Virus record (IMG/VR): IMGVR_UViG_3300047089_000152
Location: 40,151-104,150 of that record
Length of the DNA stretch: 64,000 nt
Origin: a virus
Reading direction: 5' to 3' (one strand)
Shown here: one piece after another, positions 3,371 to 56,669 of the stretch
How positions within the stretch are numbered: the first letter of the stretch is position 1
Layout of the letters: each line of letters starts with the position of its first letter
Translations under genes and position numbers: made by a program
The notes under the pieces: generated by a model
Databases searched by the model: none
The model's input: only the letters and a program-made list of their open reading frames with translations
What the model was told of the DNA's origin: nothing

Positions 3371-4036
3371 ATGCCACCACGCAAGACCACCACAGGCGGA
3401 CCAGTCCAGCTCACCAGGCTGGCAGAAGAAGTCGCCCAAATCCACATCGCCGGGGCTACGCCACTTATTATTCATAAATGGTCGGAAAAGGCGCTCAACC
3501 AGATGCGGATCGCCCAGTCCGGGGCAATTAAGCCGCCCCGCGAACCCAAGAACGCCGAAGAAAACGCCCACGCGGCAACATACTGGGTCGACGTCGCCGA
3601 GACGATCCCCGGCATCCCCAGCGTCTCATTCAAGGCCGCCATGGTCGGAGCCTGCCGGTTCTTCGACGGCCTCCCCATGACGACAGCAAAATTGCTGTTC
3701 TTCGTCGACGGGGTCGTCAGCGAAGCCAAGGGCGACGCGCCAGCACGCGACCTGCTCGTCCCGATTATCTCCGGCCCTGGGGAAATGCGGGAAGACACCC
3801 CGCGCAACGACAACGGAAACCCGGACCTCCGGTACAGGAATCAGTTCTTCCCGTGGAAAGCCGTACTCAACGTGCGGTTCATGCCCGCGAAGATCGCCCC
3901 CGAATCCGTCATCGCGCTAGCTGACGCCGCCGGTCGTGGCGGTGTCGGAGAATGGCGTCCATCCGCACCGAAAAGCGCGACTGGCACATACGGCCAGTTT
4001 CGTGTCATCACCCGGAAGGAATGGGAGTCGGCCTAA
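3371..4036 (+). CDS. stand-alone Cas7/RAMP-like protein, putative guide-RNA-binding filament
   Basis: N-terminal strand IAGATPLIIH, GIPSVSFKAAM (cf. RAMP IPxSSxKG helix), C-terminal glycine-rich loop GRGGVGEWRP...GTYGQFRV; flanked by repeat arrays. Confidence 0.7.
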   Translation: MPPRKTTTGGPVQLTRLAEEVAQIHIAGATPLIIHKWSEKALNQMRIAQSGAIKPPREPKNAEENAHAATYWVDVAETIPGIPSVSFKAAMVGACRFFDGLPMTTAKLLFFVDGVVSEAKGDAPARDLLVPIISGPGEMREDTPRNDNGNPDLRYRNQFFPWKAVLNVRFMPAKIAPESVIALADAAGRGGVGEWRPSAPKSATGTYGQFRVITRKEWESA

Positions 4037-4037: not shown

Positions 4038-4595
4038 ATGGCGACCATCACCGTCGAACAGCAGTGGGCGTTCAAATCGGGTGCGCGTGTCCCGGGTGGC
4101 GTCCACGCCGAGGATGTGGTGCGTGAGAAGGAACAGATGGAAGACCACCTGGGCCGCCTCGCCACCACGGAGGAAGCCGCGGAAATGGTCCTCCGCTGGC
4201 CTACCAAGTACAAGGCGCACCGGGCGTTCGCACCGGCAACCGAGAAAGAAGCACTCCACGAAGCAGTGGTACGCGGTGTTCGGAGCGCCTGGAGTTCCGT
4301 GATTCAGGTCGACGTCGAAATCACCGAGGTCACCAACCGGATTTCCGGTGATATCGAGATCGCAACCAGGCGTGTCGACGCACCCGAAGTGAGATGGTTT
4401 CACGCCGTGCCAGCACGCGTCGGCGACACGCAACGAGTTTATGACTCGTTGCCGAATATCGCAGCCGATGCTGACAAGGAAGCGGCGCTGTCCGAAGATC
4501 TCGCCACGCAAGCACGCAACTTCTCCGCAAAAGTAGCCAGCGTCACTGGCGAGCTGGCGCGGTTGCACAAGTTGCGCAGCACCGCCGGAAATTAG
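4038..4595 (+). CDS. partner protein of the Cas7-like gene, function unknown
   Basis: ATG 1 nt after the upstream stop; predicted helical; sits directly before the main array. Confidence 0.7.
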   Translation: MATITVEQQWAFKSGARVPGGVHAEDVVREKEQMEDHLGRLATTEEAAEMVLRWPTKYKAHRAFAPATEKEALHEAVVRGVRSAWSSVIQVDVEITEVTNRISGDIEIATRRVDAPEVRWFHAVPARVGDTQRVYDSLPNIAADADKEAALSEDLATQARNFSAKVASVTGELARLHKLRSTAGN

Positions 4596-4644: not shown

Positions 4645-5923
4645 GGAGTGGAGGGGCAGGGACTGTCGTGGCAAGGAACGGCAGGGCACGGAGTGGATTG
4701 GCAGGATAGGCTCGGCGCGGCCAGGCGGGGAGCGTTTCGGAGTGGCATGGATTGGCTGGGACTGGCAGTATCGGATCGCAGTGGTCAGGGTAGGCAAGGC
4801 CCGGCCAGGCGGGGCTCGGTATGGCCTGCACTGGCGGGGAACGCAATGGAGTGGCAGGACCGGTGTGGAATGGCTGGGACGGGAACGGCGCGGTAGGGAA
4901 TGGAGTGGCAGGAACGGTGGGGCCGGGCGCGGCGCGGCTAGGCTCGGCGCGGACGGGCATGGATTGGCTGGGCAGGACAGGATCGGAGAGCAGGGGGCTG
5001 GCGCGGCATGGCACGGAGAGGCAGGAGAGGAACGGTCGGGACAGGAGCGGCAAGGAGCGCACCGGCAGGCAGCGGCAGGGAATGGCATGGAACGGACTGG
5101 ATTGGCAGGACAGGACCGGCATGGCCAGGAGGGGCATGTCCTGGAATGGAATGGCAGGAATGGCTGGGTACGGCGGGGCCGGGCGAGCATTGGACAGGAC
5201 CGGCAGTCGCGGAAGGGCTCGGCAGGGACCGGATTGCAGCGGCGAGGATGGGCTAGGCAGGAGCGGAACGGCAGGGCATGGCCTGGATCGGAGCGGCTGG
5301 GCAGGATAGGCATGGATCGGCCTGGGTAGGCAAGGAGGGGCTGGGACGGGACCGGATTGGCAGGGCAGCAGTGGAGAGGCAAGCCGTGCAATGGCGGGGC
5401 GGGGCGTGGCATGGACTGGACCGGCAGGACTGGACTGGACTGGATTGGAGAGCAGGGCAGTGGCAGGGATCGTAGGGGTTCGGACGGGCAGGTTAGGCTT
5501 GGACGGGCTAGGCGTGGCATGGGCCGGCAAGGAACGGCTCGGAGCGGCAGGGATTGGCACGGCTCGGAGTGGCAGGACCGGACGGGTACGACGTGGCGTG
5601 GCTGGCATTGGCAAGGACTGGCAGGAGTGGATTGGCAGGGCCGGGCTTGGCATGGCGTGGCTGGGAATGGCGTGGCAGGACAGGTGGGGCTTGGCGGGCC
5701 GGGGATCGGCACGGATGGGCATGGCATGGCCCGGTAGGGCATGGCAGCATTGGACTGGACCGGACCGGCAAGGCTTGGCTTGGCTGGGATCGGATGGGAA
5801 CGGCAGGAGCGGAGCGGACTGTCGTGGCATGGCATGGCCTGGCGTGGCGCGGATCGGACGGGCAGGATAGGTCGGGCGTGGAATGGAACGGACGGGCTGG
5901 GCATGGAACGGCAGGATAGGAGT
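4645..5923 (+). repeat. main GGH-NN pentamer array, about 21 units, putative multi-guide precursor RNA
   Basis: strict 5-nt periodicity; GGCAG+4-nt delimiters at 4700, 4764, 4853, 4907, 4971, 5020, 5104, 5153, 5202, 5256, 5300, 5364, 5423, 5487, 5571, 5620, 5674, 5743, 5802, 5861, 5910; all spacings are 5n+4. Confidence 0.92.
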
Positions 5924-5937
5924 GACCCGCAGGGCTA

Positions 5938-34101: not shown

Positions 34102-34760
34102 GCCAGGGATGCTAGCAGCCGTGGCAGGTCTGCGGGCCACTGATTGTTCAGGAACTGGGAGTAGGCGATCTCATCCCGTGAGTACGCTTCGATGCAGTTG
34201 GCCTTCTCGTATCCCAGGTCCCATGCGCCTTTACCGGCGGAGGGGTGCATGTGTTCCATGATCACCCCGGGGCAGTATGCGAGGTGGGTTGCCTGCCCGA
34301 GGACCTTCCAGAAACAATCCTGGTACAGGTGCTCAACATTAGGCGGGACCATGTAACCCAGTCCGAGGATCAGGTTGGATGTCATGACGCACGCGGTCGG
34401 GACTTTCGCGGACTGGAACAGGTCATCCCCGTACGACACGCCCGGCCACCCGCCCAGCGCCGCGGTCAGGATCACATCCCACTTAGGTGTCCTGGGACGG
34501 TGGTCGTCGCCGAGGAAACCGATGAACTCGTACTTCGGGGCGTATTCCACGGCGAGCACGTTGATGATCCGGCCCAGGCCGCGGGGTTCGGAAAGAACCC
34601 GCACGTCACCTGCTTCAAGATAGCCGGGTAGTTCCGGGTCGTCGTCGTCGACAGCGACCAGCAGCTCAGCGTCGACGGTCACATCCCCCCACGTTTCGCG
34701 GAGCTGCTTGATGTTACCGGGCCGGCCCCGGGAAGGGCACAGCATCAAGGTGCTAGCCAC
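34098..34760 (-). CDS. GT2-like glycosyltransferase
   Basis: PSRGRP, VDDDDP, FLGDDH, EHMHP. Confidence 0.8.
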   Translation of the reverse strand: MASTLMLCPSRGRPGNIKQLRETWGDVTVDAELLVAVDDDDPELPGYLEAGDVRVLSEPRGLGRIINVLAVEYAPKYEFIGFLGDDHRPRTPKWDVILTAALGGWPGVSYGDDLFQSAKVPTACVMTSNLILGLGYMVPPNVEHLYQDCFWKVLGQATHLAYCPGVIMEHMHPSAGKGAWDLGYEKANCIEAYSRDEIAYSQFLNNQWPADLPRLLASLA

Positions 34761-36090
34761 GGATACCCTCGGGGACGCGGATTGTACCCAGCCCGTAGAA
34801 CGGCCGTCCTTCAGCGGGTGCGGGGCGTTCCGTCTGCCGTTCCCACGCAAGTCCCGTCTCGGCGCAGTAGTCGTCCAGCGCCGCGGCTACAGGGAAGTCG
34901 GGGCCGCCCGCTACCTGCGCGACCCACGGGGCACCCATCACGTAGTCGCCCTTGGACAGCTCCGGGTCGTGACACAGGATCGTGCCGCCCGGTTTGACGC
35001 GGGGCGCGTACCGTCGCAGCTCAGCCATCGTATGGTCGTAGGTGTGGGACGTGTCGATGAAAAGCACGTCCAGCACGCCGGGGATGAAATCGGCTGCTTC
35101 TTCGCTCATGTCGTCGCCCGGCAAGAACGACCATAGCTCAGTGTCAGCCCACCAGGGCGGCACCATCACCGGGCCGATGTCCATGCTGTACACGTGCCCG
35201 CCGGTGGCGCTAGCACCGGCTAGGAGAGCGGAGGTTGACTGTCCCGTCCGGGTTCCCAGCTCCGCTACGACCGGCTTGTCATACTGGCGGACCGCTTCGC
35301 GGATCAGGGGCATCTGCTCTACGATGTCGGACCATTCGACCATACGAGCCTGGTATTCCGCTTCGAGTTCTTTATGCCACTTCAGGGCCATGGTGTCCTC
35401 TCGACGCCACCCGGTGTACGGCTCCCGGTGAAAAGCCTGGTCGTTCAGGTTCATGCTGGCGCGCCACCCGCCGCCACCTTCAACGTAAGTCTGGTCGGGC
35501 GGGAACCCGTTGATGTCCGGGCGGTCCTGGTGCACGTAAATACCGGGGTAGACCAGGACTCGCGCTTCCCGCCCCGCATACTCGAACCAGGTATCCAACG
35601 CTGGCAGCGGTGTCAGCCTCCCGACCGCACCCAGCGCGTCGGCGTGGACGGCAGGGAAACACGTCAGCCCCGGGTAGTTCCCGTCCAGGTAGGCGATGCT
35701 CCCCGGGGGCTGGGCGCGGAGCAGGTCATCCCACCCTTGCGTCTGCATGGTCGCGTCGTCGGACCACGTCGGGAGAAACCATTCCCCGGTCGCGCGTTCA
35801 CACAGAGCCGCCCAGTAATGCGCCGACCTCGCATACCCGTACCGTTCGGGCGACTCCCAGACAAGGTCGGCTTTCAGCTGGAACGCAGCCGCCGCGGTCG
35901 GGAGGTCGTCGGGGTCGCGGGCAACCAGGATTTCCAGCAGGTCCGGTCGTTTCGCTGCTTCCCGCAGCGACAGTATCGAAGCGGTCAGCCTGTCCGGGCG
36001 GCCCCGGGACGGTACCGTCACCGAGATCACCCCCGGCCGCCGCCGCGCCGGGGGGCACAGCCGCAGCGGGATCATCGGCTCGTCAGTCAC
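34753..36090 (-). CDS. fused GT2-like glycosyltransferase + Methyltransf_24
   Basis: N-terminal PSRGRP/WSDD; C-terminal ELGTRTGQST, LFIDTSHTY, VKPGG. Confidence 0.85.
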   Translation of the reverse strand: MTDEPMIPLRLCPPARRRPGVISVTVPSRGRPDRLTASILSLREAAKRPDLLEILVARDPDDLPTAAAAFQLKADLVWESPERYGYARSAHYWAALCERATGEWFLPTWSDDATMQTQGWDDLLRAQPPGSIAYLDGNYPGLTCFPAVHADALGAVGRLTPLPALDTWFEYAGREARVLVYPGIYVHQDRPDINGFPPDQTYVEGGGGWRASMNLNDQAFHREPYTGWRREDTMALKWHKELEAEYQARMVEWSDIVEQMPLIREAVRQYDKPVVAELGTRTGQSTSALLAGASATGGHVYSMDIGPVMVPPWWADTELWSFLPGDDMSEEAADFIPGVLDVLFIDTSHTYDHTMAELRRYAPRVKPGGTILCHDPELSKGDYVMGAPWVAQVAGGPDFPVAAALDDYCAETGLAWERQTERPAPAEGRPFYGLGTIRVPEGIRG

Positions 36091-37237
36091 GGACAATCCT
36101 CGGTTCGGGTAGCGGCACGATGAACGTGCCCGTGTACCCGCGTTTACGCAGCACCGGTATCAGGCCGCCCGCGATGTCCCACGCCAGGATCAGCGCGTGG
36201 GGTGGCTGATCGGTGAACAGCCGTTCCTCATCCACGATCGGCACGTCCGTGCCGGGGATGACAGCCCCGATCTTCTCACTACCGGCAATCTCACACGCGC
36301 ACGTCAGGTACCTGGCTATGTTCGCGTAGTTGATTAGCGGGGTGGCGCGGGTCGGGGCGGTGACGGCGTAGACCGGGCCGTCTTCCGCGGCCCGCTCCAG
36401 TATTTTGTTCAACGCCAAAGCCAAATAGCCTGCGCGTTCTTCAAGGTCTGCTTTTTCCCACCGGGCAACCACGCGGAACGAACCACCGTGCATCCCGATC
36501 CGGTTCCAGGACACCACCAGCAGCCCATGCTGTGCCAGCAGCCACGACAGGGAAGCCGGCGAGAAATACCGCAGGTGCTCATGGTAGATCGTGTCGATCT
36601 GAAGGTCCTGGACGACGTTGTGCCAGTCCTGGTTGTCGATGATCAGCGTCCCGTCAGGGGCGAGTAGTTCTTCCACCCCGTCCAGGAAATCGTGCGGGTC
36701 ACCGACGTGCCCGAACACGTTCGACGCGGTGATCACCTTCGCGACCCCGTGCTCCTCGGCTATCTCCGCGGCCAGCCTGTCAGTGAAATATGCCTGGACC
36801 ACTTTGATTGACGTGTCGTCGCACCGTTTCGCCTGGTCCGTCGGTTCGATTAGCATCAGCCGCGGTTCGGGGTCGATCTTACGCAACGCCCGTAGCATCG
36901 TCCCGTCGTTACCGCCGATGTCGATGACAAGATCACCCGGCATCACCAGATCCGAAACCGCGCGGGCCTGTTCAGCGAAATGGTCCCGCAGCGCCCCCGT
37001 GTTCCCCGTGATGTACGGGTAGTCGGCGGGGAAACGTTCTTTCTCCAGCACGATGTAGTCCAGCTGGACCAGGGTGCACCGCCCGCAGCGGACCAGCCGC
37101 AGCGGGTACCGGCGGGACGTGTCCTTGCCGGGCATCGCCTGTGGTAGCGGCTGCTCCCCCATGTCCAGGACCGGGCCCAGGTAAGGGCTGCCACACGACC
37201 CGCACTCGGTGACCGGTCCCTCATGCACGGTCCGCAC
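36083..37237 (-). CDS. NDP-hexose C-methyltransferase (Methyltransf_13/14; TylC3/EryBIII-like)
   Basis: CGSCGS zinc site, LDMGEQPL, CxxCTLVQL, DIGGNDG, DTIYHEHLRYFS, terminal VPLP. Confidence 0.9.
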   Translation of the reverse strand: MRTVHEGPVTECGSCGSPYLGPVLDMGEQPLPQAMPGKDTSRRYPLRLVRCGRCTLVQLDYIVLEKERFPADYPYITGNTGALRDHFAEQARAVSDLVMPGDLVIDIGGNDGTMLRALRKIDPEPRLMLIEPTDQAKRCDDTSIKVVQAYFTDRLAAEIAEEHGVAKVITASNVFGHVGDPHDFLDGVEELLAPDGTLIIDNQDWHNVVQDLQIDTIYHEHLRYFSPASLSWLLAQHGLLVVSWNRIGMHGGSFRVVARWEKADLEERAGYLALALNKILERAAEDGPVYAVTAPTRATPLINYANIARYLTCACEIAGSEKIGAVIPGTDVPIVDEERLFTDQPPHALILAWDIAGGLIPVLRKRGYTGTFIVPLPEPRIVRD

Positions 37238-37356
37238 CCCGCAAATCTGCCAGCATCTCCGCGATCTCGCGCCGCTCCACGCCGGTATCTGTTGCGTAAC
37301 TCAGCTGCGACAGAGCCAGCCTGGCTATCGTAACCTGTCGACAATCCCAGATCAGG

Positions 37357-38319
37357 TTAACCATCGGGGTGCTCCCGGTACCAGTCAGACGTCAATGCCA
37401 GCCCAGCTTCAAAGCTGACCTGGGGTCCGTCGTAGCCCAGTGCCATGATCTTCCCGATGTCCGGTAGCCGCCGCGAAGGACTGCCCTGCGGGAGGATACC
37501 AGTCTCGATTTTGATCCGCCGGAAATACCGTTGCGCCACGGCGTAGGCCACATCCGCGACAGTCCGCTCATCCATCGTGCCCAGGTGGTAGATCTCCGCG
37601 CCACGCGGCGACTTGTCCAGCAGCGTCACGAACTGTTCCACGCAGTCACTGATGTAGCAGAACGACCGGGTTTCCTCACCGCTACCCTGGATCAGGAACG
37701 GGACCGGGTCCAGGGTGGAATTCGCCAGGCCGTTCATGCGCTGGCAGAACTCCGGTATCACATGCCGGGTGCCCATGTCCGGCCCGTAAATGTTGTGGGG
37801 CCGGACGATGATCAGCCGGTCCAGGATCCCGGTCCGCTGCCACGCCAGCGCGGCCAGCTCGGAAGCGATCTTCCCGCCCCCGTAGGAGTAGCGGGGGTTC
37901 AGCGGGTCAGGGACTACCAGCGGCACGGTCTCCGGGGTCGGCCACACCGGGGGTGTCTCGTACGCCTCGGAAGAGGAGACCAGCAGAAGTTCCCGGCAGC
38001 CCGTCACCCGGCACGCTTCCAGGACGTTCACGATGCCGCGCAACGCCACGTCCAGAACCTGCCGGGGTTCAGAATAGAAAGTCTGGGTGCCTTGCAGATA
38101 CGCCAGGTGCAGGACCCGTTCACAGCCGTGCATCGCCCGGGTCACCACGTCAGGGTCGCGGACATCACCGTTGACGATCTCGCAGGCTACCCCCGCCAGG
38201 CGGTCCGGCCGGCCGCGGCTCATGTCATCCAGCACCACAACGTCGTGGCCGTCACCGGCAAGCCGCCGGGTCAAAGCCGAGCCGATGAAACCGGCACCGC
38301 CGGTAATCAGGTATCTCAT
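37357..38319 (-). CDS. NAD-dependent nucleotide-sugar epimerase/dehydratase
   Basis: TGGAGFIG, SSSE, YGGGK, RPHNIYGP. Confidence 0.92.
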   Translation of the reverse strand: MRYLITGGAGFIGSALTRRLAGDGHDVVVLDDMSRGRPDRLAGVACEIVNGDVRDPDVVTRAMHGCERVLHLAYLQGTQTFYSEPRQVLDVALRGIVNVLEACRVTGCRELLLVSSSEAYETPPVWPTPETVPLVVPDPLNPRYSYGGGKIASELAALAWQRTGILDRLIIVRPHNIYGPDMGTRHVIPEFCQRMNGLANSTLDPVPFLIQGSGEETRSFCYISDCVEQFVTLLDKSPRGAEIYHLGTMDERTVADVAYAVAQRYFRRIKIETGILPQGSPSRRLPDIGKIMALGYDGPQVSFEAGLALTSDWYREHPDG

Positions 38320-39107
38320 CCGGTCATGCTATCCGCACGGGGACGGAACCAGCCAGCCGGGCAACGTCTTTCATGGACCCACCGGGGCCACGTATCGTCC
38401 ACGTCCACCGGGATCATGCCGCCCTGATACCCGAACCGGCCGAACGGGTTCGCACCGTCATGGTAGAACCGGTCATCTTCGTACCCAGCCGCCAAGTCGG
38501 GGTTGCATTCGACATGACAGTGCGCGTCCATCTTCGCGGCGATACTATCCCGGCCGCCCAGCCACGTCAGGTGGTGACCAGCATCGGGGATCACCGGGCC
38601 GCGGCTCCACGTGTCCCGACGCACCGACGACAAAGGCCCCGTAATACCGGCAGGGCACAGCGTGGACGTGCGCAGCGGCGCACCCCACAGCCAGTCGACC
38701 GCGAACATGCAGCAAGCCATTTCCAGGACACCCGTCCTGTGTTCTCCCACCGCGCGCATCGCCGCGTAGTTCGGTATCTCATCGACGTCAGCCAGGATCA
38801 GCCAGTCATCAGCAGACGCCCCGTCCAGCCCAGCCCGGATAGCGTCACGCTGCGCAGCCTCACGGTCCATCGGGGCGGCCCCTGCCATCCCCGGGAGGCT
38901 GTCAGCGACCACGTGGACGATGCGGTCTTTCCACGGCGCGAACCGCTCCTTATTCGCCGCGTAAACGAGAGGTTTCGGGTGTCCCTGATGGTCGACCCTG
39001 GCCTCAACCAGGACGTGCCGGTAGATAGGCCAGTCTTCCATCTGCACCAGCCGGCATTCCAGCACGTCCAGCTCGTCGCGGAACAGGAACGTGTCCCAGA
39101 TTTTCAC
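38316..39107 (-). CDS. GT17-like (beta-1,4-GlcNAc transferase) glycosyltransferase
   Basis: DTFLFRDELDVL, HPKPL, EAAQRD, ADVDEIP, GHHLTW. Confidence 0.8.
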   Translation of the reverse strand: MKIWDTFLFRDELDVLECRLVQMEDWPIYRHVLVEARVDHQGHPKPLVYAANKERFAPWKDRIVHVVADSLPGMAGAAPMDREAAQRDAIRAGLDGASADDWLILADVDEIPNYAAMRAVGEHRTGVLEMACCMFAVDWLWGAPLRTSTLCPAGITGPLSSVRRDTWSRGPVIPDAGHHLTWLGGRDSIAAKMDAHCHVECNPDLAAGYEDDRFYHDGANPFGRFGYQGGMIPVDVDDTWPRWVHERRCPAGWFRPRADSMTG

Positions 39108-39327
39108 GCCGCCCATGACCTCCGGTCGTGCCGGGCTACAGCGGGACCGCGCCCACCGGGACACGCACCGCGTGCACATGACGGTCGGGTCGTACGGGTC
39201 CAGTCGCGTCCATGCGCCACACCAGAAACAGTACCCCACGGCATAAGCCCTCCACGGACAGGCTGCCGGGGTCTAGGACAGCGGTTATGTATAACCCTGA
39301 CCGTCGTTAGCATCATAGCGTCCCATG

Positions 39328-39336
39328 TGGTACGCT
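39328..39336 (+). promoter_or_regulatory. extended -10 promoter of a mini-array
   Basis: TGGTACGCT. Confidence 0.65.
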
Positions 39337-39351
39337 TAGAGTCCGAGCCGA

Positions 39352-39429
39352 GGCAGGATGGGATTGGCATGGCGCGGCAAGGTAGGGCTCGGATCGGCAA
39401 GGAATGGATAGGAACGGCAGGAGTGGCAG
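39352..39429 (+). ncRNA. GGH-NN mini-array (1 unit)
   Basis: GGCAG-GATG + 11 pentamers + GGCAG-GAGT, followed by a hairpin. Confidence 0.82.
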
Positions 39430-39431
39430 GG

Positions 39432-39460
39432 TGCGGTCCTCTCGTATCGGGAGGACCGCA
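39432..39460. terminator. hairpin between the mini-array and the convergent radical SAM gene
   Basis: TGCGGTCCTC...GAGGACCGCA. Confidence 0.7.
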
Positions 39461-39477
39461 TCTCCATTTTCCAACCG

Positions 39478-40761
39478 TCATCCTGCCGCCATATGTGAGT
39501 CGAAGAAATTATCCTTCGGGCCGATATGGGAACGGAACTTGTACTTACGGATCAATTCCTCGCGGATTCCCACGAGGTCTTCTGAACTGAGTTCCGCCGT
39601 GCGGACCACGGAATCGGTACCCATGTTCTTTTGCCCGTAGGCGCCAAGTCCTTCTCCAGTAAATATCAGGTCGGTAGCTATTCCCTCGTCCATTTCCCGC
39701 CTGAATTCTGTGCCGCGATAAGGATAATAGATAGCAATCTGCGCATCATCTATCCCTGACGTGCAGATGAACCGTTCAGTCTCCGCGATCGTAGCGCGTG
39801 TCTCGCCGGGTAGCCCGATCATCACGAATGCTTTCACGGTGATGCCCGCATCCTTGCAGTACCGGACACAATCGTAATTCTGCGTGGCGGTTGTCTTCTT
39901 ATCCATCCGGTCTAGCATCTGCTGCGACCCGGATTCCGCACCAAACGCCACCTCGACACACCCCGCATCGGCTAGCGCCGCGGCGAACTCCGCGGTCATG
40001 AATTTCGCGTGCACATTGCAGCGAAATCTTAGCCCGGAGCGCTTGAGTAGGTCCAGGTACGGCTGGCACTTCCCCAAATTAATTGCAAAAAGATCATCAT
40101 ACAAATACACGCCCTCATACCCGAGCGTCACGATGTCGTCCAGTTCGGCCTCGGCGTTGCCCAGCGAAGTCCACCTGGTCAGCGTCCGCGCGTCTTCACA
40201 GAACTTGCACGCCATCGGACAGCCCCGGCCGAGCATCATCGTGGTCGAGTTCAGCCCGGCCAGGGTGTACGAGTAGTTTTTCAGGAACCCAGGCTCACCC
40301 AGCCGGTCCGGGCGGGGCATCGCCGCTAGTTCCTGCCGGGGGATCTGGTCGTTGCTCATGACAGGAACCGTTTTGTTCTGCACGATGCCTGGCAGTGCCC
40401 GCTCCCCGTCGCCTGCCACCAGGTAGTCCCACAGCCCGGCCTGGTCGTCTGCGTTCATCTCCCGGCCGTAATGCCGGACGTGCGGGCCGCCTGCCACCAG
40501 AACTTTGGACGGCCAGCGGCTCCTGATCGCGCGGGCTATCCGGTTAGCCTCGGCGCGCTGCGGTGTCATCACCGAGACGCCTACTATGTCAGCGTCCGCG
40601 AACTGGTCCAGATCCTCGACGTCGTATTCGTCTACGACGCTGATCTTAGTACCGGGGGCCTGCGCGGCCACCGCGGATTTCAGGTACAGCAGGCCGAGGG
40701 GCGGGTAGATACGGTCGTCGTCCAGGAACGGGGACCGGCAGGAAACCAGGGACAGTTTCAT
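39478..40761 (-). CDS. cobalamin-binding radical SAM enzyme (class B methyltransferase-like)
   Basis: PPLGLLYL, GGPH, GDGE B12 domain; GRGCPMACKFC; GAESGSQ; IGLPGET. Confidence 0.92.
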   Translation of the reverse strand: MKLSLVSCRSPFLDDDRIYPPLGLLYLKSAVAAQAPGTKISVVDEYDVEDLDQFADADIVGVSVMTPQRAEANRIARAIRSRWPSKVLVAGGPHVRHYGREMNADDQAGLWDYLVAGDGERALPGIVQNKTVPVMSNDQIPRQELAAMPRPDRLGEPGFLKNYSYTLAGLNSTTMMLGRGCPMACKFCEDARTLTRWTSLGNAEAELDDIVTLGYEGVYLYDDLFAINLGKCQPYLDLLKRSGLRFRCNVHAKFMTAEFAAALADAGCVEVAFGAESGSQQMLDRMDKKTTATQNYDCVRYCKDAGITVKAFVMIGLPGETRATIAETERFICTSGIDDAQIAIYYPYRGTEFRREMDEGIATDLIFTGEGLGAYGQKNMGTDSVVRTAELSSEDLVGIREELIRKYKFRSHIGPKDNFFDSHMAAG

Positions 40762-40773
40762 GCACGCAGACTA

Positions 40774-40953
40774 CTATGTCTGCTTCCACACGCCAGGGCC
40801 GGACTCGAAATCGGACGTGGCGTGACCTGACATGTCACACGGGCCACCCTCGATCGCGTCGTCCCATCCTGCCACGGAACCCTCCGCGGTAGCGTCGTAA
40901 GGCTGGCCGGGCACGTTAGGCGGTGACGTGATCGGGTCCGGTGCTTTAGCCAT
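40774..40953 (-). CDS. small acidic protein
   Basis: MAKAPDP...; RBS GGGAG. Confidence 0.55.
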   Translation of the reverse strand: MAKAPDPITSPPNVPGQPYDATAEGSVAGWDDAIEGGPCDMSGHATSDFESGPGVWKQT

Positions 40954-40957
40954 AGTT

Positions 40958-41230
40958 TCAGACTCCCTTCCATCGGGAAGCGTCAGAGGTTCCGTCTGGC
41001 GCCCACCCGGCGCCTGTCGGCTGGCCGCTGTCCATGTTAGCGGCCCCGCCGTCGATTGTTTTACGCCACCGGTCCCACGTGTAATTACTTCCCGGTGTCG
41101 CGTCGTAGGCATGTTCAGGTTCGGACTGCTCGGCGGGGTCCTGCTGACCTTCCGCCGTAGGGTCGTAGCCTTCCTCATCCTGGTACGGCTGAATGTTCGT
41201 GTCAACAACCGGGAACTGGACGTACGGCAT
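40958..41230 (-). CDS. small acidic protein
   Basis: two YDxT motifs, also present in the next gene. Confidence 0.6.
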   Translation of the reverse strand: MPYVQFPVVDTNIQPYQDEEGYDPTAEGQQDPAEQSEPEHAYDATPGSNYTWDRWRKTIDGGAANMDSGQPTGAGWAPDGTSDASRWKGV

Positions 41231-41236
41231 GGCGTA

Positions 41237-41563
41237 TCACTTCTCCCGTACAACTTCAGGTACGGTCGTGGGTTTCCACGAAGGGGCACCCGGGGGTGTC
41301 CAGTTCTCACCCTTGGCTTGCGGTTTGCCGTCCTCACCGGGCTGGACTGACTGCTGCGTCTCCACTACCGGGGCTTTCGACACGACCGGGGCACCCACGT
41401 TCCAGCCCAGGTCACCCGACGCGCCACCCGGGGCGGTCATCGCGTTGTTCTCGAAGATCTGATCCCCGGCATGCTGAGACGTGGGCACCAGCACCGACAC
41501 CGGGTCTGGTTTCAGCGCCCCTGACAGGTCAGCGTAGCTGCCCTTGTTCACCCAGTCAGCCAT
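41237..41563 (-). CDS. hypothetical protein
   Basis: RBS AGGAGG. Confidence 0.6.
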   Translation of the reverse strand: MADWVNKGSYADLSGALKPDPVSVLVPTSQHAGDQIFENNAMTAPGGASGDLGWNVGAPVVSKAPVVETQQSVQPGEDGKPQAKGENWTPPGAPSWKPTTVPEVVREK

Positions 41564-41585
41564 ACGGCCCTCCTGTGGTCCCTTT

Positions 41586-41864
41586 TCACCCGCGGCCCGG
41601 CTTGTCCCCGGTATACAAGTGGTAGTGCTCGCGTATGCTGTCGCGTTCCGGGGGGTCCGGGTGGTGCCGGTGACAAGCCACCCACGCGGTGCCCTCCACC
41701 GGGAACCGTCCTATCCGCAGGCACCGGGGTTCGTGGCAGTTGTTCTTCCGCACATGCACGTACACGTTCGTCACGATACCCACCGTGAACACTGTCACCG
41801 CGAAAAAACCCGACCAGAACAAATACCACGGGCTGTTCGCGCTGTCCAGGCCCATCCAGTGCAT
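41586..41864 (-). CDS. small membrane protein with Cys/His motif
   Basis: WYLFWSG TM segment; NCHEPRCLRIG...CHRHHP. Confidence 0.6.
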   Translation of the reverse strand: MHWMGLDSANSPWYLFWSGFFAVTVFTVGIVTNVYVHVRKNNCHEPRCLRIGRFPVEGTAWVACHRHHPDPPERDSIREHYHLYTGDKPGRG

Positions 41865-42033
41865 GACTACTTGGTCCGGTCATCCTTGTAATCATGACAC
41901 TTGTCGCCGTTAGCGACAGTGGCCAGTTCCTTACCTGCCTGCGCCACCAGCCCCGCCCCGGCCGTGTTCGACGCTGCCGTCCCGGAAATCAGGCCCGGCG
42001 CGCTAGCCGGGGGGTAGACACGCGCCAGGTCAC

Positions 42034-42582
42034 TCACCCGTGATACCTGCCACCGCGCAGCACCCGGCCCGAACCCGGCTGGAACTTCCCGCCAGGAACC
42101 GGTTCGTTACCCGCGATGCCGGGCAGCTGCGGGCCACCCGTCCCGTACCCCTGGTCGTTGGCCTGGGTGGAATCGTGCGGGCCTTCCAGGTCATCGGAGA
42201 CCATGTCGGACTTGTACGTCCCCGAAAACGGGGAACCCGGCCTGGTGTAACTCACCGAAGATGCACCACCCGCATTATTCGGGGTCGTGCCGGTACCCGG
42301 AGCACCCGTCTGCGTGATCTCCGCGTCGGTGATACCAGTCAGCCCGTCAACCAGCTGACCCGGTTCGACCGTCGGGTCGGTGTCACCGGCCCCGCCAGTC
42401 GTCCCCGGCGCGCCCGTCCCAGTAGGCAGCGGCCCACCGAAAATCGCTGCGCCCCAGTCACCAACCGGGTACTGTCCCGGCTCGTTCGTCGGGTCATTCG
42501 ACGCCGACGTCCCCGACTGCCTGTTTCCCTTACCGGAAACCTGGCCGCCACCGTCAGGAGTCTGACTCGGCTCAATAGGCAT
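42034..42582 (-). CDS. Gly/Pro/Thr/Asp-rich low-complexity protein
   Basis: DPTxEPGQ and TGAPGT repeated; RBS AGGAGG. Confidence 0.65.
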   Translation of the reverse strand: MPIEPSQTPDGGGQVSGKGNRQSGTSASNDPTNEPGQYPVGDWGAAIFGGPLPTGTGAPGTTGGAGDTDPTVEPGQLVDGLTGITDAEITQTGAPGTGTTPNNAGGASSVSYTRPGSPFSGTYKSDMVSDDLEGPHDSTQANDQGYGTGGPQLPGIAGNEPVPGGKFQPGSGRVLRGGRYHG

Positions 42583-42630
42583 AACTGCCTCCTTCTGCCC
42601 CCCGAAGGGAGCGACCCTTTTGATCTGCTT

Positions 42631-42927
42631 TCACCCCTGGCGGGGCAGCCCGAACTTCGCGTTACCGAACTGCACCGCAACCGGCGAGCACGCCACGCAC
42701 TGCTTCGTACTGTGATCGTCGCTGTCCGTGCTGACCAGCTGCCCGGGCAGCGCGTAATGCCCGCACGCCAGCCGCGGTATCTCACCGAACTGGCGGCACT
42801 TCGGGCAGATCACCTGACCGGTCCGCAACCTCAAAGCGTCAGCCGTAGCGCCGATGCGCCGCCCGCAGGAAGTACAGCGTTCCGCGGGCGTCGTATCTGC
42901 GCCCTTCAGCTTCCGCTTGTTACTCAC
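42631..42927 (-). CDS. zinc-finger protein
   Basis: three CxxC motifs plus CGH. Confidence 0.6.
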   Translation of the reverse strand: MSNKRKLKGADTTPAERCTSCGRRIGATADALRLRTGQVICPKCRQFGEIPRLACGHYALPGQLVSTDSDDHSTKQCVACSPVAVQFGNAKFGLPRQG

Positions 42928-43307
42928 GGACGCTGACCGTATGTCTCCATCAGCTGCTGCTTCGTCGACCCGGCCGCCTCATCCGGGTCCGCTCCCTGAG
43001 TAACCGCATGGTCGACCCAGTCCTGCTTCGGTGCCGCAGGGCGTGGCGGTCCGTCCGCCGGTGCAGGCTCAGGTTCCTCTTCTTCAGTATCCACGGGGCC
43101 CGCACCAGTATTCGCCGGTTCCGAAACGGGCACCTGCGGGGGAACGTATGCAGGCGGGTCATCTGAATCCGACACCCACACTGCCAGGCCACCCCGGATC
43201 AGGTCCGCGCCCTCAGCCGCCGAAACTTCCAGCTGCCCGTACGGGGGCTGCGGCCACGCCGCGTCGTTACGGCTCCCCGAAATCCCGACAATCATCCGCA
43301 CAATCAC
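42924..43307 (-). CDS. capsid-adjacent protein with small helical C-terminal domain
   Basis: KQDWVDHAV...TKQQL motif, directly after the capsid gene. Confidence 0.65.
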   Translation of the reverse strand: MIVRMIVGISGSRNDAAWPQPPYGQLEVSAAEGADLIRGGLAVWVSDSDDPPAYVPPQVPVSEPANTGAGPVDTEEEEPEPAPADGPPRPAAPKQDWVDHAVTQGADPDEAAGSTKQQLMETYGQRP

Positions 43308-43379
43308 GATAAGACTCCCTCAGCGACGGCCCCGTTGAAGCCAGGGGAGCGGGCTGCTGCCCGCCCCCCTGGACGTATA

Positions 43380-44621
43380 CTACGTGGCCGCGCCAGCGAA
43401 GTACTTCAGAGCACCGGTCTGGTCCACGAGGACCCCGTCACCACGCAGGATGGCGCGGAAGGTCACCAGGTCGGTGGAGAACGCGAAGTCGTCGGACCGC
43501 TCGAACCGGACCCCGCCGACCAGACGCACGAAGTACTGCGAGAAGTCACCGAAAACAATGGACTTCGCGGACAGCGCCTGCGCGGGCATGAACGGGTCAG
43601 CGACCAGCGGCTTACCCAGCAGAAGGTCCGGGGACCCGAGCACCGCGGAAGGCTCCCAGATGGGGCGGCCGACAGTGTCGGTGATCTTCCTGAACCCGCC
43701 GATCGTCTTGTCAGCCGCCAGCCAGTAGCAGCTGCGGGACTGACGGTACGGGGCGATCACGGAGTATTCCAGGTCGACCAGGTTCGCATAGCTGGGCGCA
43801 CCGGAAACACCGGTCGTGGTGCCGGTAACGCCGAGGGTCGCACCGGTGATGACACCACCGGATACACCGTTGATGCCGTTGACCAGAGACGTGCCGAACA
43901 CGTTACCGATCGCCCGCCCGGCCTGCATCGCGAGATAACCCAGCAGGTCAACCGCGGTGTCGTCGATCAGTTCACGCGCCGCCTGGATCATGATGCCGAA
44001 CTTCACCGCACCGAGGGTCTGCATCGAGAACGCAGGGTCGGACAGGGGAAGCGCGGAAGCCTGCGAAGCGGTCAGCGCCGTCGAATGCGCAGTCGTCTTC
44101 GGAACCTGGAGCGTTTCACCACCACCAGTGTTCAAAACGGTCGGCCCGCACTGCATGACACCCGAAACCTCAATGAGGTGGGAAATCAGCTGGTCGTAGA
44201 AGTCCGTCGGGATAATACCCGAAACGGCTCCCTGCGTGGACTGCAAAACACGGTAGTTGATCGGACCCGGCGCCTGCCGGCGGATCTCCAGCGCCCGCGG
44301 GGCACCTTCCTCACCACGCGCCCACTTGCGGATCTCATCGTTCATGTTCCGCTGCGCCGGGCTACCAGCACCACCCTCACGCGGGCGGCCCTCAAGGTCG
44401 TTGAACGCGTCGTCGGCGGCCTTCGCGCGCTTCTCCGTCTCCAGAACCGCGCCGATGCGCGTGTCCAGCGTGCGCATCTCCTCCTGCATCGCGTCCCACT
44501 TACCCTGCTCCTCCGGGGTAAACGAGCGGTTCTCCGCAGCGGCGTCCTCGGCGATCTTCTTCGCCTCGTTCCACACGCCGAGCCTGCGGTCACGCAGCCT
44601 CTTCGCGACTTCACTAGCCAT
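43380..44621 (-). CDS. major capsid protein, HK97 fold
   Basis: N-terminal delta coiled coil; IPTDF, ARELIDD, GRPIWEP...LLGKP, FGDFSQY, FRAILRGDG. Confidence 0.95.
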   Translation of the reverse strand: MASEVAKRLRDRRLGVWNEAKKIAEDAAAENRSFTPEEQGKWDAMQEEMRTLDTRIGAVLETEKRAKAADDAFNDLEGRPREGGAGSPAQRNMNDEIRKWARGEEGAPRALEIRRQAPGPINYRVLQSTQGAVSGIIPTDFYDQLISHLIEVSGVMQCGPTVLNTGGGETLQVPKTTAHSTALTASQASALPLSDPAFSMQTLGAVKFGIMIQAARELIDDTAVDLLGYLAMQAGRAIGNVFGTSLVNGINGVSGGVITGATLGVTGTTTGVSGAPSYANLVDLEYSVIAPYRQSRSCYWLAADKTIGGFRKITDTVGRPIWEPSAVLGSPDLLLGKPLVADPFMPAQALSAKSIVFGDFSQYFVRLVGGVRFERSDDFAFSTDLVTFRAILRGDGVLVDQTGALKYFAGAAT

Positions 44622-44803
44622 GACTGGCCCTTTCCCTTGGTACGGACAGATCTGTAAGAACCTGCTCCGTCCGCACCCGGGGAGGGTGGCTACGGCCGAG
44701 GTAACAATATTCAGTTGTACGTCATCTACCGCACATGGGGCATTTGCCCACGGGCGGGTAACACTGGAGGTGCCCGCATTTACTGCATCTCCAGTGCCTC
44801 ATG

Positions 44804-45016
44804 TCACACCGGGTTGGGTCGGCCCACGTCGGTGTGCGGGTCGCTGCCCGCGAACCCGGCGTCGGTGTGGTCGACGTGCTCCGCCCCGATCCCGGACGTT
44901 TCCGTTCCGAGGACGACACCCAGGTTCCCGGGCTCACCGATTTCCCCTTTCGGGTCGGTGCCGGTGAACACGTTCGTGTCCGACGTCGCCGGATGCGGTA
45001 CCCCCACGTCAGGCAT
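44804..45016 (-). CDS. small acidic protein
   Basis: ORF between protease and capsid genes. Confidence 0.5.
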   Translation of the reverse strand: MPDVGVPHPATSDTNVFTGTDPKGEIGEPGNLGVVLGTETSGIGAEHVDHTDAGFAGSDPHTDVGRPNPV

Positions 45017-45022
45017 GGCCGG

Positions 45023-46018
45023 TCACTCGTCGTTGGCGTAGGGGTCTTCGGCGTTGTCCAGCAGGTCCAGCATGGCCAGCGCACCCGTCAGGGTCTTCTT
45101 CCGCTCCTGCTTGGCCTTCGCCTGCCGCGGGCCAGTATTGTCGGTCCGCTTGAAGAACTCCATCGCCCTGTTCTCGACCAGACGCTCCCGGACCTCTTCC
45201 GGTTCGGCCTGCGCCCACTGAGCCAGCGAGTACACGGCACCGTTGATAGCCCGCGCCGCCGCTGTCGCGTCCGGATAGGCAGGGTCCAGTACCGGGGCCA
45301 CGTCGATCAGCTGCACCGCGTGCAACGTCCGCATCGGATACCCGAACTGGTCCGAAACCCCCCACTCATCCCCACCCGGGAACACCCGGAAAGCGAAAGA
45401 CGAGTGGCAGATGTCGCCGCGCTGCACATATTCCAGCACGTCCCTGCGGGCCTGCGGGGGTTCCACGTCATACATCAGCCCGGTCGAGTCGATACCCAGC
45501 TTCAGCGTGTTCGCCCGGGTAGTACCCAGCAGCGCGTCGTCGCTGTGGTTGTACCGGCACACCACATCCGGCCACCCGTCCTGCTTGGATTCATCGAACG
45601 CGTTCCGGTTCACCTGCTCCACGAAACCGCCCAGCTTCCTGGACAGCTTATCGAAACACGCCGCGTAACCCCAGATGTGCTGCGCCTTGTCCTGTTCCGT
45701 CCGCACTTCCAGCGGGAACCGGACGAACCGCCGCTCAGGGAACGAACCAGAATCCGGTTCCATCCCCCCGAACGCACGCGCCGCGCCCGTCACGTTCACG
45801 CCATGCTTACGCGCAGCACCGATGATCGCCGGCATCGCGTCCTTACCGAACGGCGAATTAGGAGCCTGCGACAGCGATAGCCGCACCGCGGCGGCATCGT
45901 GTATCGGGAAGTGACGCTTGTCCCGCGGCGTTGTGCGCCCGCTCATGTCACGCATCCCGCCAGGCTCAATCAAAGCGAACTGACTGTCAAGCAGGTTGTG
46001 GGTGTCCAGCTCAGCCAT
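45023..46018 (-). CDS. HK97-family prohead protease with N-terminal extension
   Basis: GYAACF...LGGFVE, YNH, LGTT, SSFAF, DVAPVLDPAYPD; extension RHFPIHD...VRLSL. Confidence 0.92.
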   Translation of the reverse strand: MAELDTHNLLDSQFALIEPGGMRDMSGRTTPRDKRHFPIHDAAAVRLSLSQAPNSPFGKDAMPAIIGAARKHGVNVTGAARAFGGMEPDSGSFPERRFVRFPLEVRTEQDKAQHIWGYAACFDKLSRKLGGFVEQVNRNAFDESKQDGWPDVVCRYNHSDDALLGTTRANTLKLGIDSTGLMYDVEPPQARRDVLEYVQRGDICHSSFAFRVFPGGDEWGVSDQFGYPMRTLHAVQLIDVAPVLDPAYPDATAAARAINGAVYSLAQWAQAEPEEVRERLVENRAMEFFKRTDNTGPRQAKAKQERKKTLTGALAMLDLLDNAEDPYANDE

Positions 46019-46049
46019 GTCTCCTGTCCTTCTCTTTGTACTACGCCGG

Positions 46050-46406
46050 TCAGGATTTCCTGGCGGGCCGGGCCTTATTCATAGATTTCGCGGGCTTTTT
46101 AGCCGCGGGCTTAGCCGCAGCAGGCTTCGCTTCGGCAGCAGGCTTCGCGGTCTTCGCGGCAGCTGAATCGCCCTTACCCTGCGAGGATGGCAACTCCGGG
46201 TATTTCCGACGGACCGCTGCCTGAACTTTTGCCTTCTCCGCAGGCGTCCCATTCGCCGCAACTCGTGACAGGGCGTTAGCGCCCCGTGCCTTAGAGTTAA
46301 TAGGGTATGCGTCAGCACCACCAGGACCACCACCAGGCAGCGCATACGACCCAGCCGGCGCGGCAGTATTAGGCGCAGGCTTACCGGTCTTCTTCCTCGG
46401 TGGCAT
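46050..46406 (-). CDS. basic head-region protein with Lys/Pro/Ala-rich tail
   Basis: YALP...YPI...NALSR...VRRKYP, similar to the protease N-terminal extension. Confidence 0.7.
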   Translation of the reverse strand: MPPRKKTGKPAPNTAAPAGSYALPGGGPGGADAYPINSKARGANALSRVAANGTPAEKAKVQAAVRRKYPELPSSQGKGDSAAAKTAKPAAEAKPAAAKPAAKKPAKSMNKARPARKS

Positions 46407-46425
46407 ATAATCTCCCTTAGTGCCA

Positions 46426-46499
46426 GGTATGGAGGGGTGCGGCTTGGCGTGGCTTGGCGGGGCGCGGCGGGGATTGCATTGGATTGGATTGGCAGGAAC
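46426..46499 (+). ncRNA. GGH-NN mini-array (1 unit)
   Basis: TATAAT at 46406-46411; 13 pentamers + GGCAG-GAAC; then a hairpin. Confidence 0.8.
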
Positions 46500-46500
46500 G

Positions 46501-56667: not shown

Positions 56668-56669
56668 AG

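What the first reader, a model, noticed from the sequence alone, without database searches (positions are those of the whole stretch)
39328..40110. Mini-array at 39352 encodes a near-copy of a motif in the adjacent radical SAM gene
Guide NN (39361-39415): tt at gc aa ag tc tc aa at ta ac. The + strand at 40078-40110 read as xNN gives tt at gc aa ag tc tc ta aa ta ac. That is 9/11 exact, 7 consecutive. The guide decodes to V-Y-I-F-D-D-L-F-A-I-N against self V-Y-L-Y-D-D-L-F-A-I-N. The cassette has its own TGGTACGCT promoter and a 3' hairpin.
Basis: seen in the sequence. Interest (0 to 1): 0.9.

Follow-up and report, generated by a model that had tools for sequence, protein, structure and literature searches.

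The report
Lone VIPR guide beside its near-target
This soil-type phage carries a stand-alone guide-RNA gene of the recently described VIPR DNA-silencing system right behind its radical SAM gene; the guide fits related rival phages' version of a conserved enzyme motif better than the phage's own copy, which has one unique escape-like amino-acid change.

Summary
At 39356-39415 there are 12 perfect GGxNN pentamers. The NN letters of 11 of them match the + strand at 40078-40110, read as xNN, at 20 of 22 positions. The next best site in the whole 104-kb genome, on either strand, scores 14.

This is a vrRNA gene of a VIPR system, described in 2026 preprints. The genome encodes a Vipr-like RAMP (3371-4036) and a main array of about 21 guides. 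The cassette lies about 35 kb away, so it counts as "solo".

The skipped base is the codon wobble position. The guide pairs with the sense strand of the B12-radical SAM gene at V218-L229.

- **Self versus relatives:** the guide matches its own gene at 20/24. It matches the same site in 18 relatives' loci at 20-22/24, with 13 loci at 22/24.
- **Relatives:** those examined have no Vipr and no arrays.
- **F221Y:** this is the only self-unique residue at a conserved column of the protein, and it lies on a guide mismatch.

Best reading (0.62): a weapon against sibling phages, kept next to its own resistant allele. Autoregulation is the main rival. There are no expression or binding data.

Earlier notes of this scan describe the same arrangement in four other phage genomes.

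The parts
39328..39336 (+). Extended -10-like promoter motif TGGTACGCT. The 11-mer around it is identical to the copy upstream of the vipr operon at 3144-3154.
   Evidence: 11 copies of TGGTA[CG][GA][CA]T in the genome, all on the + strand, 4 directly upstream of pentamer cassettes; not found by the E. coli-type consensus scan.
39352..39355 (+). 5' GGCA punctuation tetramer, as found between guides of the main staggered array.
39356..39415 (+). Guide region of the solo vrRNA: 12 pentamers GG-H-NN. Position 3 is A in 6 units, C in 5 and T in 1.
39416..39428 (+). 3' GGCA, one further pentamer GGAGT, then a second GGCA. This is a possible processing or handle region.
   Evidence: GGAGT followed by GGCA also ends several guides of the main array.
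39430..39470 (+). Hairpin with a 15-bp stem (39430-39444 pairs with 39448-39462) and a UAU loop, followed by a T-rich stretch. Likely terminator or 3' cap of the vrRNA.
   Evidence: MFE -53.6 kcal/mol for 39343-39475, z = -2.9. Other dispersed cassettes end in similar hairpins.
40075..40110 (-). Near-self target: codons V218-L229 of the radical SAM gene. The sense strand would pair with the guide, and the skipped bases are the wobble positions.
   Evidence: 20/24 match. Mismatches are at L220 (1), Y221 (1) and L229 (2).
40099..40101 (-). Codon TAT for Y221, where all 119 homologues have F (or P in distant ones).
   Evidence: it is the only self-unique residue at a conserved column of the 427-aa protein.
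39478..40761 (-). B12-binding radical SAM gene (427 aa), part of a sugar-modification operon inside the late structural module.
   Evidence: PF04055, PF02310.
38316..39239 (-). Glycosyltransferase family 17-like gene downstream of the cassette. In relative L001 the matches to the radical SAM and GT17-like proteins overlap, which leaves no room for a cassette.
3371..4036 (+). vipr: a small stand-alone Cas7/Csm3-like RAMP with G-loop GVGEWRP. It is the presumed effector that loads this guide.
   Evidence: the only PDB sequence hit is SUSP1 Vipr, 36pp, E 0.56, over the G-loop; pLDDT 88.8; top fold hits are Csm3/Cmr4/Cas7; phrog_4652.
4038..4595 (+). Candidate vap (accessory) gene, 185 aa, with no family match.
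4645..5930 (+). Main staggered vrRNA array: about 21 guides of 8-17 pentamers separated by GGCA.

Best explanation
The cassette at 39328-39470 is a stand-alone (solo) vrRNA gene of this phage's own VIPR system.

Proposed mechanism:
1. It is transcribed from a phage promoter of the same class as the vipr operon.
2. The RNA of about 125 nt is coated by Vipr protomers, one per GGHNN unit. Each protomer hides GGH and presents NN.
3. The filament reads double-stranded DNA by the published 1-nt skip rule.
4. Its intended target is the conserved VYLFDDLFAIN-coding stretch of the B12-radical SAM gene in related VIPR-less phages. That gene sits in their late operon, so a bound filament would block transcription through the operon.

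The phage's own copy, 660 bp away, is spared because it differs at amino-acid-determining positions. These are the unique F221Y change and a TTG Leu codon at position 229, plus a possible contribution from recoded wobble bases.

Keeping the guide next to its resistant allele keeps weapon and antidote linked when phages recombine.

Shown here: the array grammar, the match statistics, the better fit to relatives, the unique substitution, the RAMP fold, and the absence of Vipr and arrays in the relatives examined. Inferred: transcription, loading, silencing, and the claim that two extra mismatches are enough for self-immunity.
For: - **Match beyond chance:** 20/22, against a next best of 14 in the genome.
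- **Published rule and register:** the match follows the 1-nt skip rule in wobble register.
- **Effector in the genome:** a Vipr-like RAMP with a conserved G-loop lies beside a 21-guide array.
- **Same grammar:** the cassette uses the same GGCA punctuation and GGH units as the main array. It also shares an 11-mer promoter motif with the vipr operon.
- **Better fit to relatives:** the guide matches the orthologous site at 22/24 in 13 of 18 relatives' loci, against 20/24 in self. Only one locus scores as low as self.
- **Specificity:** a 20-base core pattern hits only the six radical SAM-bearing contigs among 2.9 million viral contigs.
- **Relatives are unarmed:** the five relatives' records searched whole have no Vipr and no arrays, and none of the 18 loci has an array near the gene. 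One of these records is 97% complete and shares 46 of 126 ORFs in synteny.
- **F221Y:** it is unique among 120 proteins. It is the only self-unique residue at a conserved column in the whole protein, and it lies on a guide mismatch in the 3' half of the guide, where published filaments nucleate.
- **Same logic in a second cassette:** the guide at 6989-7038 spells IRIQQIYRYG. Five homologues carry that allele, while the adjacent own gene has IRIQNLYRYG.
- **Published precedent:** solo vrRNAs have been reported whose self-match is lower than their non-self match.
Against: - No perfect (24/24, or even 22/22 core) target was found in the viral or metagenome collections. A relaxed 20-base pattern found nothing in the prokaryote genome collection either.
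- The self match of 0.83 is still above the 0.8 threshold that the preprints use to call targets. Mismatch tolerance of VIPR has not been published.
- The self site is the most AT-rich wobble window of the gene. If anything, that should make it easier to unwind.
- The relatives found are distant, at about 59% mean protein identity. The host is unknown, so co-infection is assumed, not shown.
- Half of the units are GGA, a change that abolished silencing in the SUSP1 system. This Vipr must therefore differ in its position-3 pocket.
- No RNA data could be obtained.
Confidence: 0.62

Rival explanations
1. Autoregulation. The guide acts on the phage's own radical SAM gene and the late operon. Partial complementarity (20/24), helped by an easily melted AT-rich wobble context, gives tunable or timed repression of the sugar-modification and downstream genes.
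For: - The guide lies next to its site, and the self match of 0.83 is above the published target-calling threshold.
- The self site has the lowest GC3 of the gene.
- Four dispersed cassettes sit antisense in the late module beside genes that they partly match.
- The promoter class is shared with + strand genes, which run opposite to the - strand late module. Whether these are early genes is not known.
Against: - A regulator should co-evolve towards its own site. Instead the guide keeps the ancestral TT where the own gene alone has changed (F221Y), and it fits 13 of 18 foreign loci better than self.
- The second cassette spells a foreign allele exactly at the protein level, not its own.
- Published VIPR biology is conflict between mobile elements, and no self hits at or above 80% were reported.
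Confidence: 0.2
2. Decaying or neutral relic. The cassette once matched an ancestral allele, possibly after being acquired together with the gene, and it no longer does anything. The mismatches are drift.
For: No perfect target was found anywhere. No expression data exist. No orthologous cassette is available in other genomes to show conservation.
Against: - All 12 units keep GG, both GGCA marks are intact, and the promoter 11-mer is identical to that of the vipr operon. A perfect 15-bp hairpin is present.
- Drift would not place the only self-unique conserved-column substitution of the protein inside the 12-codon footprint (roughly 3% by position alone).
Confidence: 0.1
3. Decoy or hijack guide. 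The RNA is made to load a co-infecting rival's Vipr, or to titrate it, and so redirect it. This is what satellite solo vrRNAs do in the published E. coli system.
For: Solo vrRNAs that redirect a foreign Vipr are documented.
Against: This phage has its own Vipr, and the cassette shares the grammar of its own array. The relatives that carry the matching site have no Vipr to hijack. The target is a single-copy gene, not a multicopy decoy.
Confidence: 0.05

Closest known systems
VIPR systems: Vipr RAMP plus vrRNA, type II exemplar Escherichia phage SUSP1 (bioRxiv 10.64898/2026.04.26.720920; structures in 10.64898/2026.04.26.720927)
   Same: - Tandem pentamers with invariant GG and a hypervariable NN; 12 units, within the published range of 9-16.
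- Target read with one skipped base per unit, aligned to the codon wobble position.
- A small stand-alone RAMP with a G-loop, encoded by a phage.
- Target in a conserved coding motif of a competing phage.
   Different: - Position 3 is A in half of the units. GGY to GGA abolished silencing in SUSP1.
- There is no SUSP1-like pseudoknot tail. Instead there are GGCA punctuation marks and a plain hairpin.
- The cassette has its own promoter and lies 35 kb from vipr.
- Its best hit in its own genome is 0.83. The preprint found no self hits at or above 0.8.
Solo (orphan) vrRNAs of VIPR-null SUSP1-like phages and F5 satellites (bioRxiv 10.64898/2026.10.15.759431)
   Same: It is a stand-alone vrRNA more than 20 km... 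more than 20 kb from any vipr gene, which meets the published 'solo' criterion. The self-match is lower than the non-self match, which the preprint proposes as the way to avoid autoimmunity.
   Different: - Here the carrier phage has its own vipr and a large array.
- The target is an auxiliary enzyme gene, not vipr, vrRNA loci, satellites or REP decoys.
- The guide sits immediately beside the resistant own allele. The preprints do not describe this arrangement.
Staggered vrRNA arrays (fig. S18 of 10.64898/2026.04.26.720920) and non-canonical VIPR repeat motifs (10.64898/2026.10.21.760802)
   Same: Guides are delimited by a short overlap or punctuation (GGCA followed by G) rather than by long tails. 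The repeat deviates from strict GGY.
   Different: These were published as array architectures at the vipr locus. Here a single unit of that grammar is dispersed and has its own promoter and hairpin.
Linked weapon-and-immunity modules in phage competition (from general knowledge, not tested here): marker exclusion by free-standing homing endonucleases in T-even phages, and toxin-antitoxin or restriction-modification linkage
   Same: An agent that attacks the allele of co-infecting relatives is kept tightly linked to a resistant allele of the same gene.
   Different: The agent is an RNA guide for a silencing filament, not a nuclease. No evidence of cleavage or gene conversion was found; vap has no nuclease domain.

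Membership tests
VIPR vrRNA | Tandem array of 9-16 five-base units with invariant GG and a variable NN | tested here: met
   12 consecutive units at 39356-39415 all start with GG, and the NN letters vary.
VIPR vrRNA | Third position of the unit is a pyrimidine (GGY) | tested here: not met
   Position 3 is A in 6 of 12 units, C in 5 and T in 1. GGY to GGA abolished silencing in SUSP1. Non-canonical motifs are reported for other VIPR clades.
VIPR vrRNA | A Vipr protein (minimal RAMP with G-loop and thumb) is encoded with the RNA | tested here: met
   ORF 3371-4036. The model has pLDDT 88.8, and the top fold matches are Csm3/Cmr4/Cas7. The only PDB sequence hit is SUSP1 Vipr, over the G-loop GVG(D/E)WRP. 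The gene lies in the same genome, 35 kb away.
VIPR vrRNA | NN letters match natural sequences under the 1-nt skip rule, with the skip on the codon wobble position | tested here: met
   20/24 to self and 22/24 to relatives, in codon register.
VIPR vrRNA | Conserved structured 3' tail (a pseudoknot in the SUSP1 clade) | tested here: inconclusive
   The 3' end is GGCA-GGAGT-GGCA followed by a 15-bp hairpin. The hairpins of the dispersed cassettes differ in sequence. No alignment to a published tail was possible.
VIPR vrRNA | Expressed as an RNA of about 100 nt that co-purifies with Vipr and silences a matching target | not testable with these tools
The phage is an uncultured metagenome record.
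Solo vrRNA (criterion of 10.64898/2026.10.15.759431) | [quoted passage not shown] | tested here: met
   vipr ends at 4036 and the cassette starts at 39328, a distance of about 35 kb.
Solo vrRNA (criterion of 10.64898/2026.10.15.759431) | Self-match lower than the match to the competitors' sequence | tested here: met
   Self scores 0.83. 13 of 18 relatives' loci score 0.92 and four score 0.88. One locus equals self at 0.83.
VIPR systems as published | No hit of a guide to its own contig at or above 80% NN match | tested here: not met
   The S5 guide scores 20/24 = 0.83 on its own contig. The second cassette (6989-7038) scores 18/20 = 0.90.

The most novel reading that the evidence does not exclude
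Dispersed vrRNA cassettes and the altered alleles next to them form linked weapon-antidote modules that behave like selfish allele drives among related phages. In addition, the skipped (wobble) bases are not neutral in this GGH-type VIPR.

At both robust near-self sites the wobble bases on the target strand have been driven to T, in a genome with GC3 of about 0.8. This could be extra self-immunity bought with synonymous changes. It could also be a mutational footprint of flipped-out cytosines during leaky self-binding.
Probability: 0.3. Interest if true: 0.8.

Novelty: new variant of a known kind. Interest (0 to 1): 0.6.

Why it matters
VIPR was described only in 2026, and the published natural targets are satellites, prophage regulators and other VIPR loci. 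Published controls found no near-self hits.

This case shows a VIPR-positive phage that scatters promoter-bearing single guides through its late genes, each beside the gene it almost matches. For this guide there is a clean natural example of self versus non-self discrimination. The guide fits a motif that is invariant in the close clade of the radical SAM family. The carrier's own gene has the one amino-acid change (F221Y) that no other family member has.

This gives concrete substrates for measuring how many mismatches VIPR tolerates, and at which positions. It also allows a test of whether skip bases matter. It suggests that guide-plus-resistant-allele pairs spread as linked modules, a new layer of phage-phage competition.

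Tried and rejected
- **Chance match:** rejected.
- **Reading the - strand as codon plus CC that encodes a peptide:** rejected. In the second cassette the corresponding 'codons' include TAG and TAA where the gene has TAT, so only codon positions 1-2 are related (read by eye).
- **Position 3 of the guide units versus the skipped base of the target:** no relation. 3 of 11 positions agree for self and 2 of 12 for relatives (by eye).
- **Nucleotide search of the phage record collection with 38300-40800:** no match.
- **Rfam scan:** only a tRNA.
- **Consensus promoter and terminator scan:** nothing.
- **Exact target patterns:** the 22-base pattern found none in viral or metagenome contigs. The relaxed 20-base pattern found none in prokaryote genomes.
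- **Main-array guides M00-M20 against self and three relatives:** no hit reached the 0.8 identity used to call targets, and the few scores above the shuffled-guide null were only 0.68-0.80. The targets of these guides remain unknown.
- **Is the AT-rich patch at the self site a recombination tract from a low-GC homologue?** Inconclusive.
- **Do other complete VIPR-positive viral genomes of the same Vipr clade have dispersed cassettes?** Of five searched, three have arrays only at the vipr locus and two gave no match to the pattern.

Full report
**What is in the sequence.**
The window is the last 64 kb of a single 104,150-bp virus record (GC 63.6%, CheckV completeness 81%). At 39356-39415 the + strand carries 12 consecutive five-base units that all begin with GG. 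They are bracketed by GGCA tetramers at 39352-39355 and 39416-39419. After the second tetramer come GGAGT, a further GGCA, and a hairpin with a 15-bp stem (39430-39462) followed by a T-rich stretch. Upstream, at 39328-39336, lies TGGTACGCT.

The cassette fills the 238-bp gap between two - strand genes and is antisense to them. These are a B12-binding radical SAM gene (39478-40761) and a GT17-like glycosyltransferase (38316-39239). Both belong to a sugar-modification operon (epimerase, C-methyltransferase, methyltransferase) inside the late structural module.

Taking letters 4-5 of the 11 units at 39361-39415 and comparing them with every position of the genome read as xNN, the site at 40078-40110 scores 20 of 22. 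The next best of about 208,000 positions scores 14. Shuffled guides never reach the observed value. The site is in codon register on the radical SAM gene (V218 to N228), and the unmatched base is always the wobble base.

**It is one of a family.**
The same GGxNN grammar occurs in a 1.3-kb non-coding array at 4645-5930. That array holds about 21 guides of 8-17 units separated by GGCA. The grammar also occurs in six or seven dispersed single cassettes, nearly all on the + strand.

A note from an earlier follow-up in this scan pointed to VIPR systems, and I checked the papers myself. According to the preprints:
- vrRNAs consist of 9-16 GGY/NN repeats.
- Vipr, a minimal RAMP, binds one unit per protomer, hides GGY and presents NN.
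- Double-stranded DNA is read with one skipped base per unit, usually the codon wobble.
- The result is transcriptional silencing of competing mobile elements.
- Staggered arrays and single-guide systems exist.

A later preprint describes solo vrRNAs, defined as lying more than 20 kb from any vipr gene. It also describes guides whose self-match is lower than their non-self match, which avoids autoimmunity.

**The effector is present.**
ORF 3371-4036, just upstream of the main array, folds with high confidence (pLDDT 88.8). Its best structural matches are Csm3, Cmr4 and Cas7 backbone subunits. Its only sequence hit in the PDB is the SUSP1 Vipr protein, aligned over the G-loop (GVGDWRP against GVGEWRP). 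That is weak as a score (E 0.56), but it covers residues the structure paper names as contacting G1, G2 and Y3.

The neighbouring 185-aa ORF (4038-4595) has no family match and no nuclease domain.

The promoter-like motif class TGGTA[CG][GA][CA]T occurs 11 times, always on the + strand. Four copies lie directly upstream of cassettes. One of these is the copy ahead of the vipr operon, which shares an identical 11-mer with the copy at 39326-39336. Transcription itself is inferred. The consensus scan found no sigma-70 promoter or canonical terminator, and no RNA data could be obtained.

**Whom does the guide fit?**
I collected the orthologous radical SAM locus from 18 loci in viral and metagenome contigs (15 distinct contigs, 64-80% protein identity).
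- The 12-unit guide matches the homologous site at 22/24 in 13 loci, 21/24 in four and 20/24 in one. It matches its own gene at 20/24.
- The good fit holds even in low-GC relatives whose wobble bases are entirely different. This is what the skip rule is thought to achieve.
- A 20-base core pattern (all units except unit 1 and unit 10) hits only the six radical SAM-bearing contigs among 2.9 million viral contigs. It hits nothing in the prokaryote genome collection.
- None of the 18 loci has an array near the gene. The five relatives' records that I searched whole have no Vipr homologue and no arrays.
- The most complete relative (119 kb, 97% complete) shares 46 of 126 ORFs in synteny, at about 59% identity. 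It lacks the roughly 9-kb island that holds the VIPR locus here.

**The phage's own allele is altered where it counts.**
Among 120 family members, the protein of this phage is the only one with Y at position 221. The others have F, or P in distant members. Scanning all 427 positions, F221Y is the only place where this protein has a residue seen in no other member at a conserved column. It falls on one of the guide mismatches, in unit 9 of 12. That is within the 3' part of the guide, where published filaments nucleate and then grow 3' to 5'.

The own gene also uses TTG for L229 where all but one of the relatives' loci have CTN. This removes one more match. One mismatch is shared by self and relatives: the guide has AT where the gene has a Leu codon at position 220. 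The exact allele the guide spells (VYIFDDLFAIN followed by H or Q) was not found.

**The same logic appears in a second cassette.**
The guide at 6989-7038 matches the last codons of the adjacent ParB-like gene at 18/20, only 11 bp away. At the protein level it spells IRIQQIYRYG. Five homologues carry that allele, while the own gene has IRIQNLYRYG.

Two further cassettes (22599 and 46426) have their best own-genome hits in the neighbouring gene, but at borderline scores. Of five other complete VIPR-positive viral genomes of the same Vipr clade, three have arrays only at the vipr locus, mostly GGC units. The other two gave no match to the pattern. Dispersed cassettes therefore look unusual.

**Interpretation.**
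The best-supported reading is a solo guide aimed at sibling phages that carry the same late-operon gene. It is kept next to a resistant copy of that gene so that weapon and antidote are inherited together.

Autoregulation is the main rival. It is favoured by adjacency, by the self score of 0.83 (above the 0.8 used in the preprints to call targets), and by the AT-rich wobble context. It does not explain why the guide keeps the ancestral letters where only the own gene has changed.

Mismatch tolerance of VIPR is unpublished. Whether 20/24 against 22/24 discriminates is therefore the key open point.

**An unexplained feature.**
The 12 codons of the self site have GC3 of 3/12, the lowest window in the gene. 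Windows this low make up 0.6% of 12-codon windows genome-wide. All six codons that end in C in the high-GC relatives end in T here. The second cassette's self site is also T-rich at wobble positions.

The published rule treats skip bases as neutral. Possible explanations are selection on skip bases, selection for or against melting, deamination of flipped-out cytosines during leaky self-binding, or chance. A test for a recombination patch was inconclusive.

**Comparison with what is known.**
This is a VIPR vrRNA by grammar, code and effector. It departs from the published picture in four ways:
- GGA units make up half of the guide, and that change inactivated SUSP1.
- It has no SUSP1-type tail.
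- It is a dispersed, self-promoted single guide in a VIPR-positive phage.
- It has a near-self hit of 0.8 or more in the adjacent gene, which the preprints' own controls did not find and which their text does not describe.

Earlier notes of this scan report the same guide-beside-near-target arrangement in four other phage genomes. Those are unchecked AI notes and do not count as independent evidence, but they suggest that the arrangement recurs.

Noticed in passing
window 6949-7043: A second dispersed cassette (10 units at 6989-7038) matches the last codons of the adjacent ParB-like gene (6130-6999) at 18/20, only 11 bp away. At the protein level it spells IRIQQIYRYG, an allele present in five homologues, while the own gene has IRIQNLYRYG.
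   Followed up: partly
window 22583-22720 and 46400-46550: Two more promoter-bearing cassettes with terminal hairpins. Their best own-genome hits lie in the neighbouring tail-terminator gene (19/24) and in the start of the gene at 46050-46514 (19/26). Both are borderline against shuffled guides.
   Followed up: partly
window 50280-50380, 3146-3303; genome 33354-33408 (- strand, outside the window): Three further cassettes (one lies upstream of vipr) have no significant match in the own genome or in three relatives. Their targets are unknown.
   Followed up: partly
window 4645-5930: None of the roughly 21 main-array guides reaches 0.8 identity in the own genome or in three related phage records of 83-140 kb. 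The few scores above the shuffled-guide null are 0.68-0.80. The units next to each GGCA mark are mostly GGA, whereas internal units are mostly GGC.
   Followed up: partly
whole genome; window 8, 1714, 3146, 22583, 39328, 50280, 54101, 60553: Eleven copies of TGGTA[CG][GA][CA]T, all on the + strand. Most have an AC about 6 bases upstream and GTA about 5 bases downstream. This is probably a phage promoter class. The copies at 22583, 39328 and 50280 fire antisense into the late operon.
   Followed up: partly
window about -2345 to 6130 (genome about 37800-46280): The VIPR locus lies in an island of about 9 kb that is absent from the 97%-complete relative, where the flanking genes are adjacent. The island also holds an HTH protein (1660-2556) and a DUF6283 gene (2556-2975).
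   Followed up: partly
window 34753-40761 compared with loci L001-L006: Gene order differs between phages. Most relatives have GT17, epimerase, C-methyltransferase, methyltransferase, radical SAM. This phage and L001 have the radical SAM gene first. In L001 the matches to the radical SAM and GT17-like proteins overlap, so the cassette here looks like an insertion.
   Followed up: partly
window 40075-40110 and 6949-6978: The wobble bases of both robust near-self sites are T-rich on the target strand. The S5 site has GC3 of 3/12, the lowest window of its gene, and a class that makes up 0.6% of windows genome-wide. About 40 other low-GC3 patches exist in the genome and were not examined.
   Followed up: partly
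window 56669-56743: A single tRNA-Met gene on the - strand.
   Followed up: no
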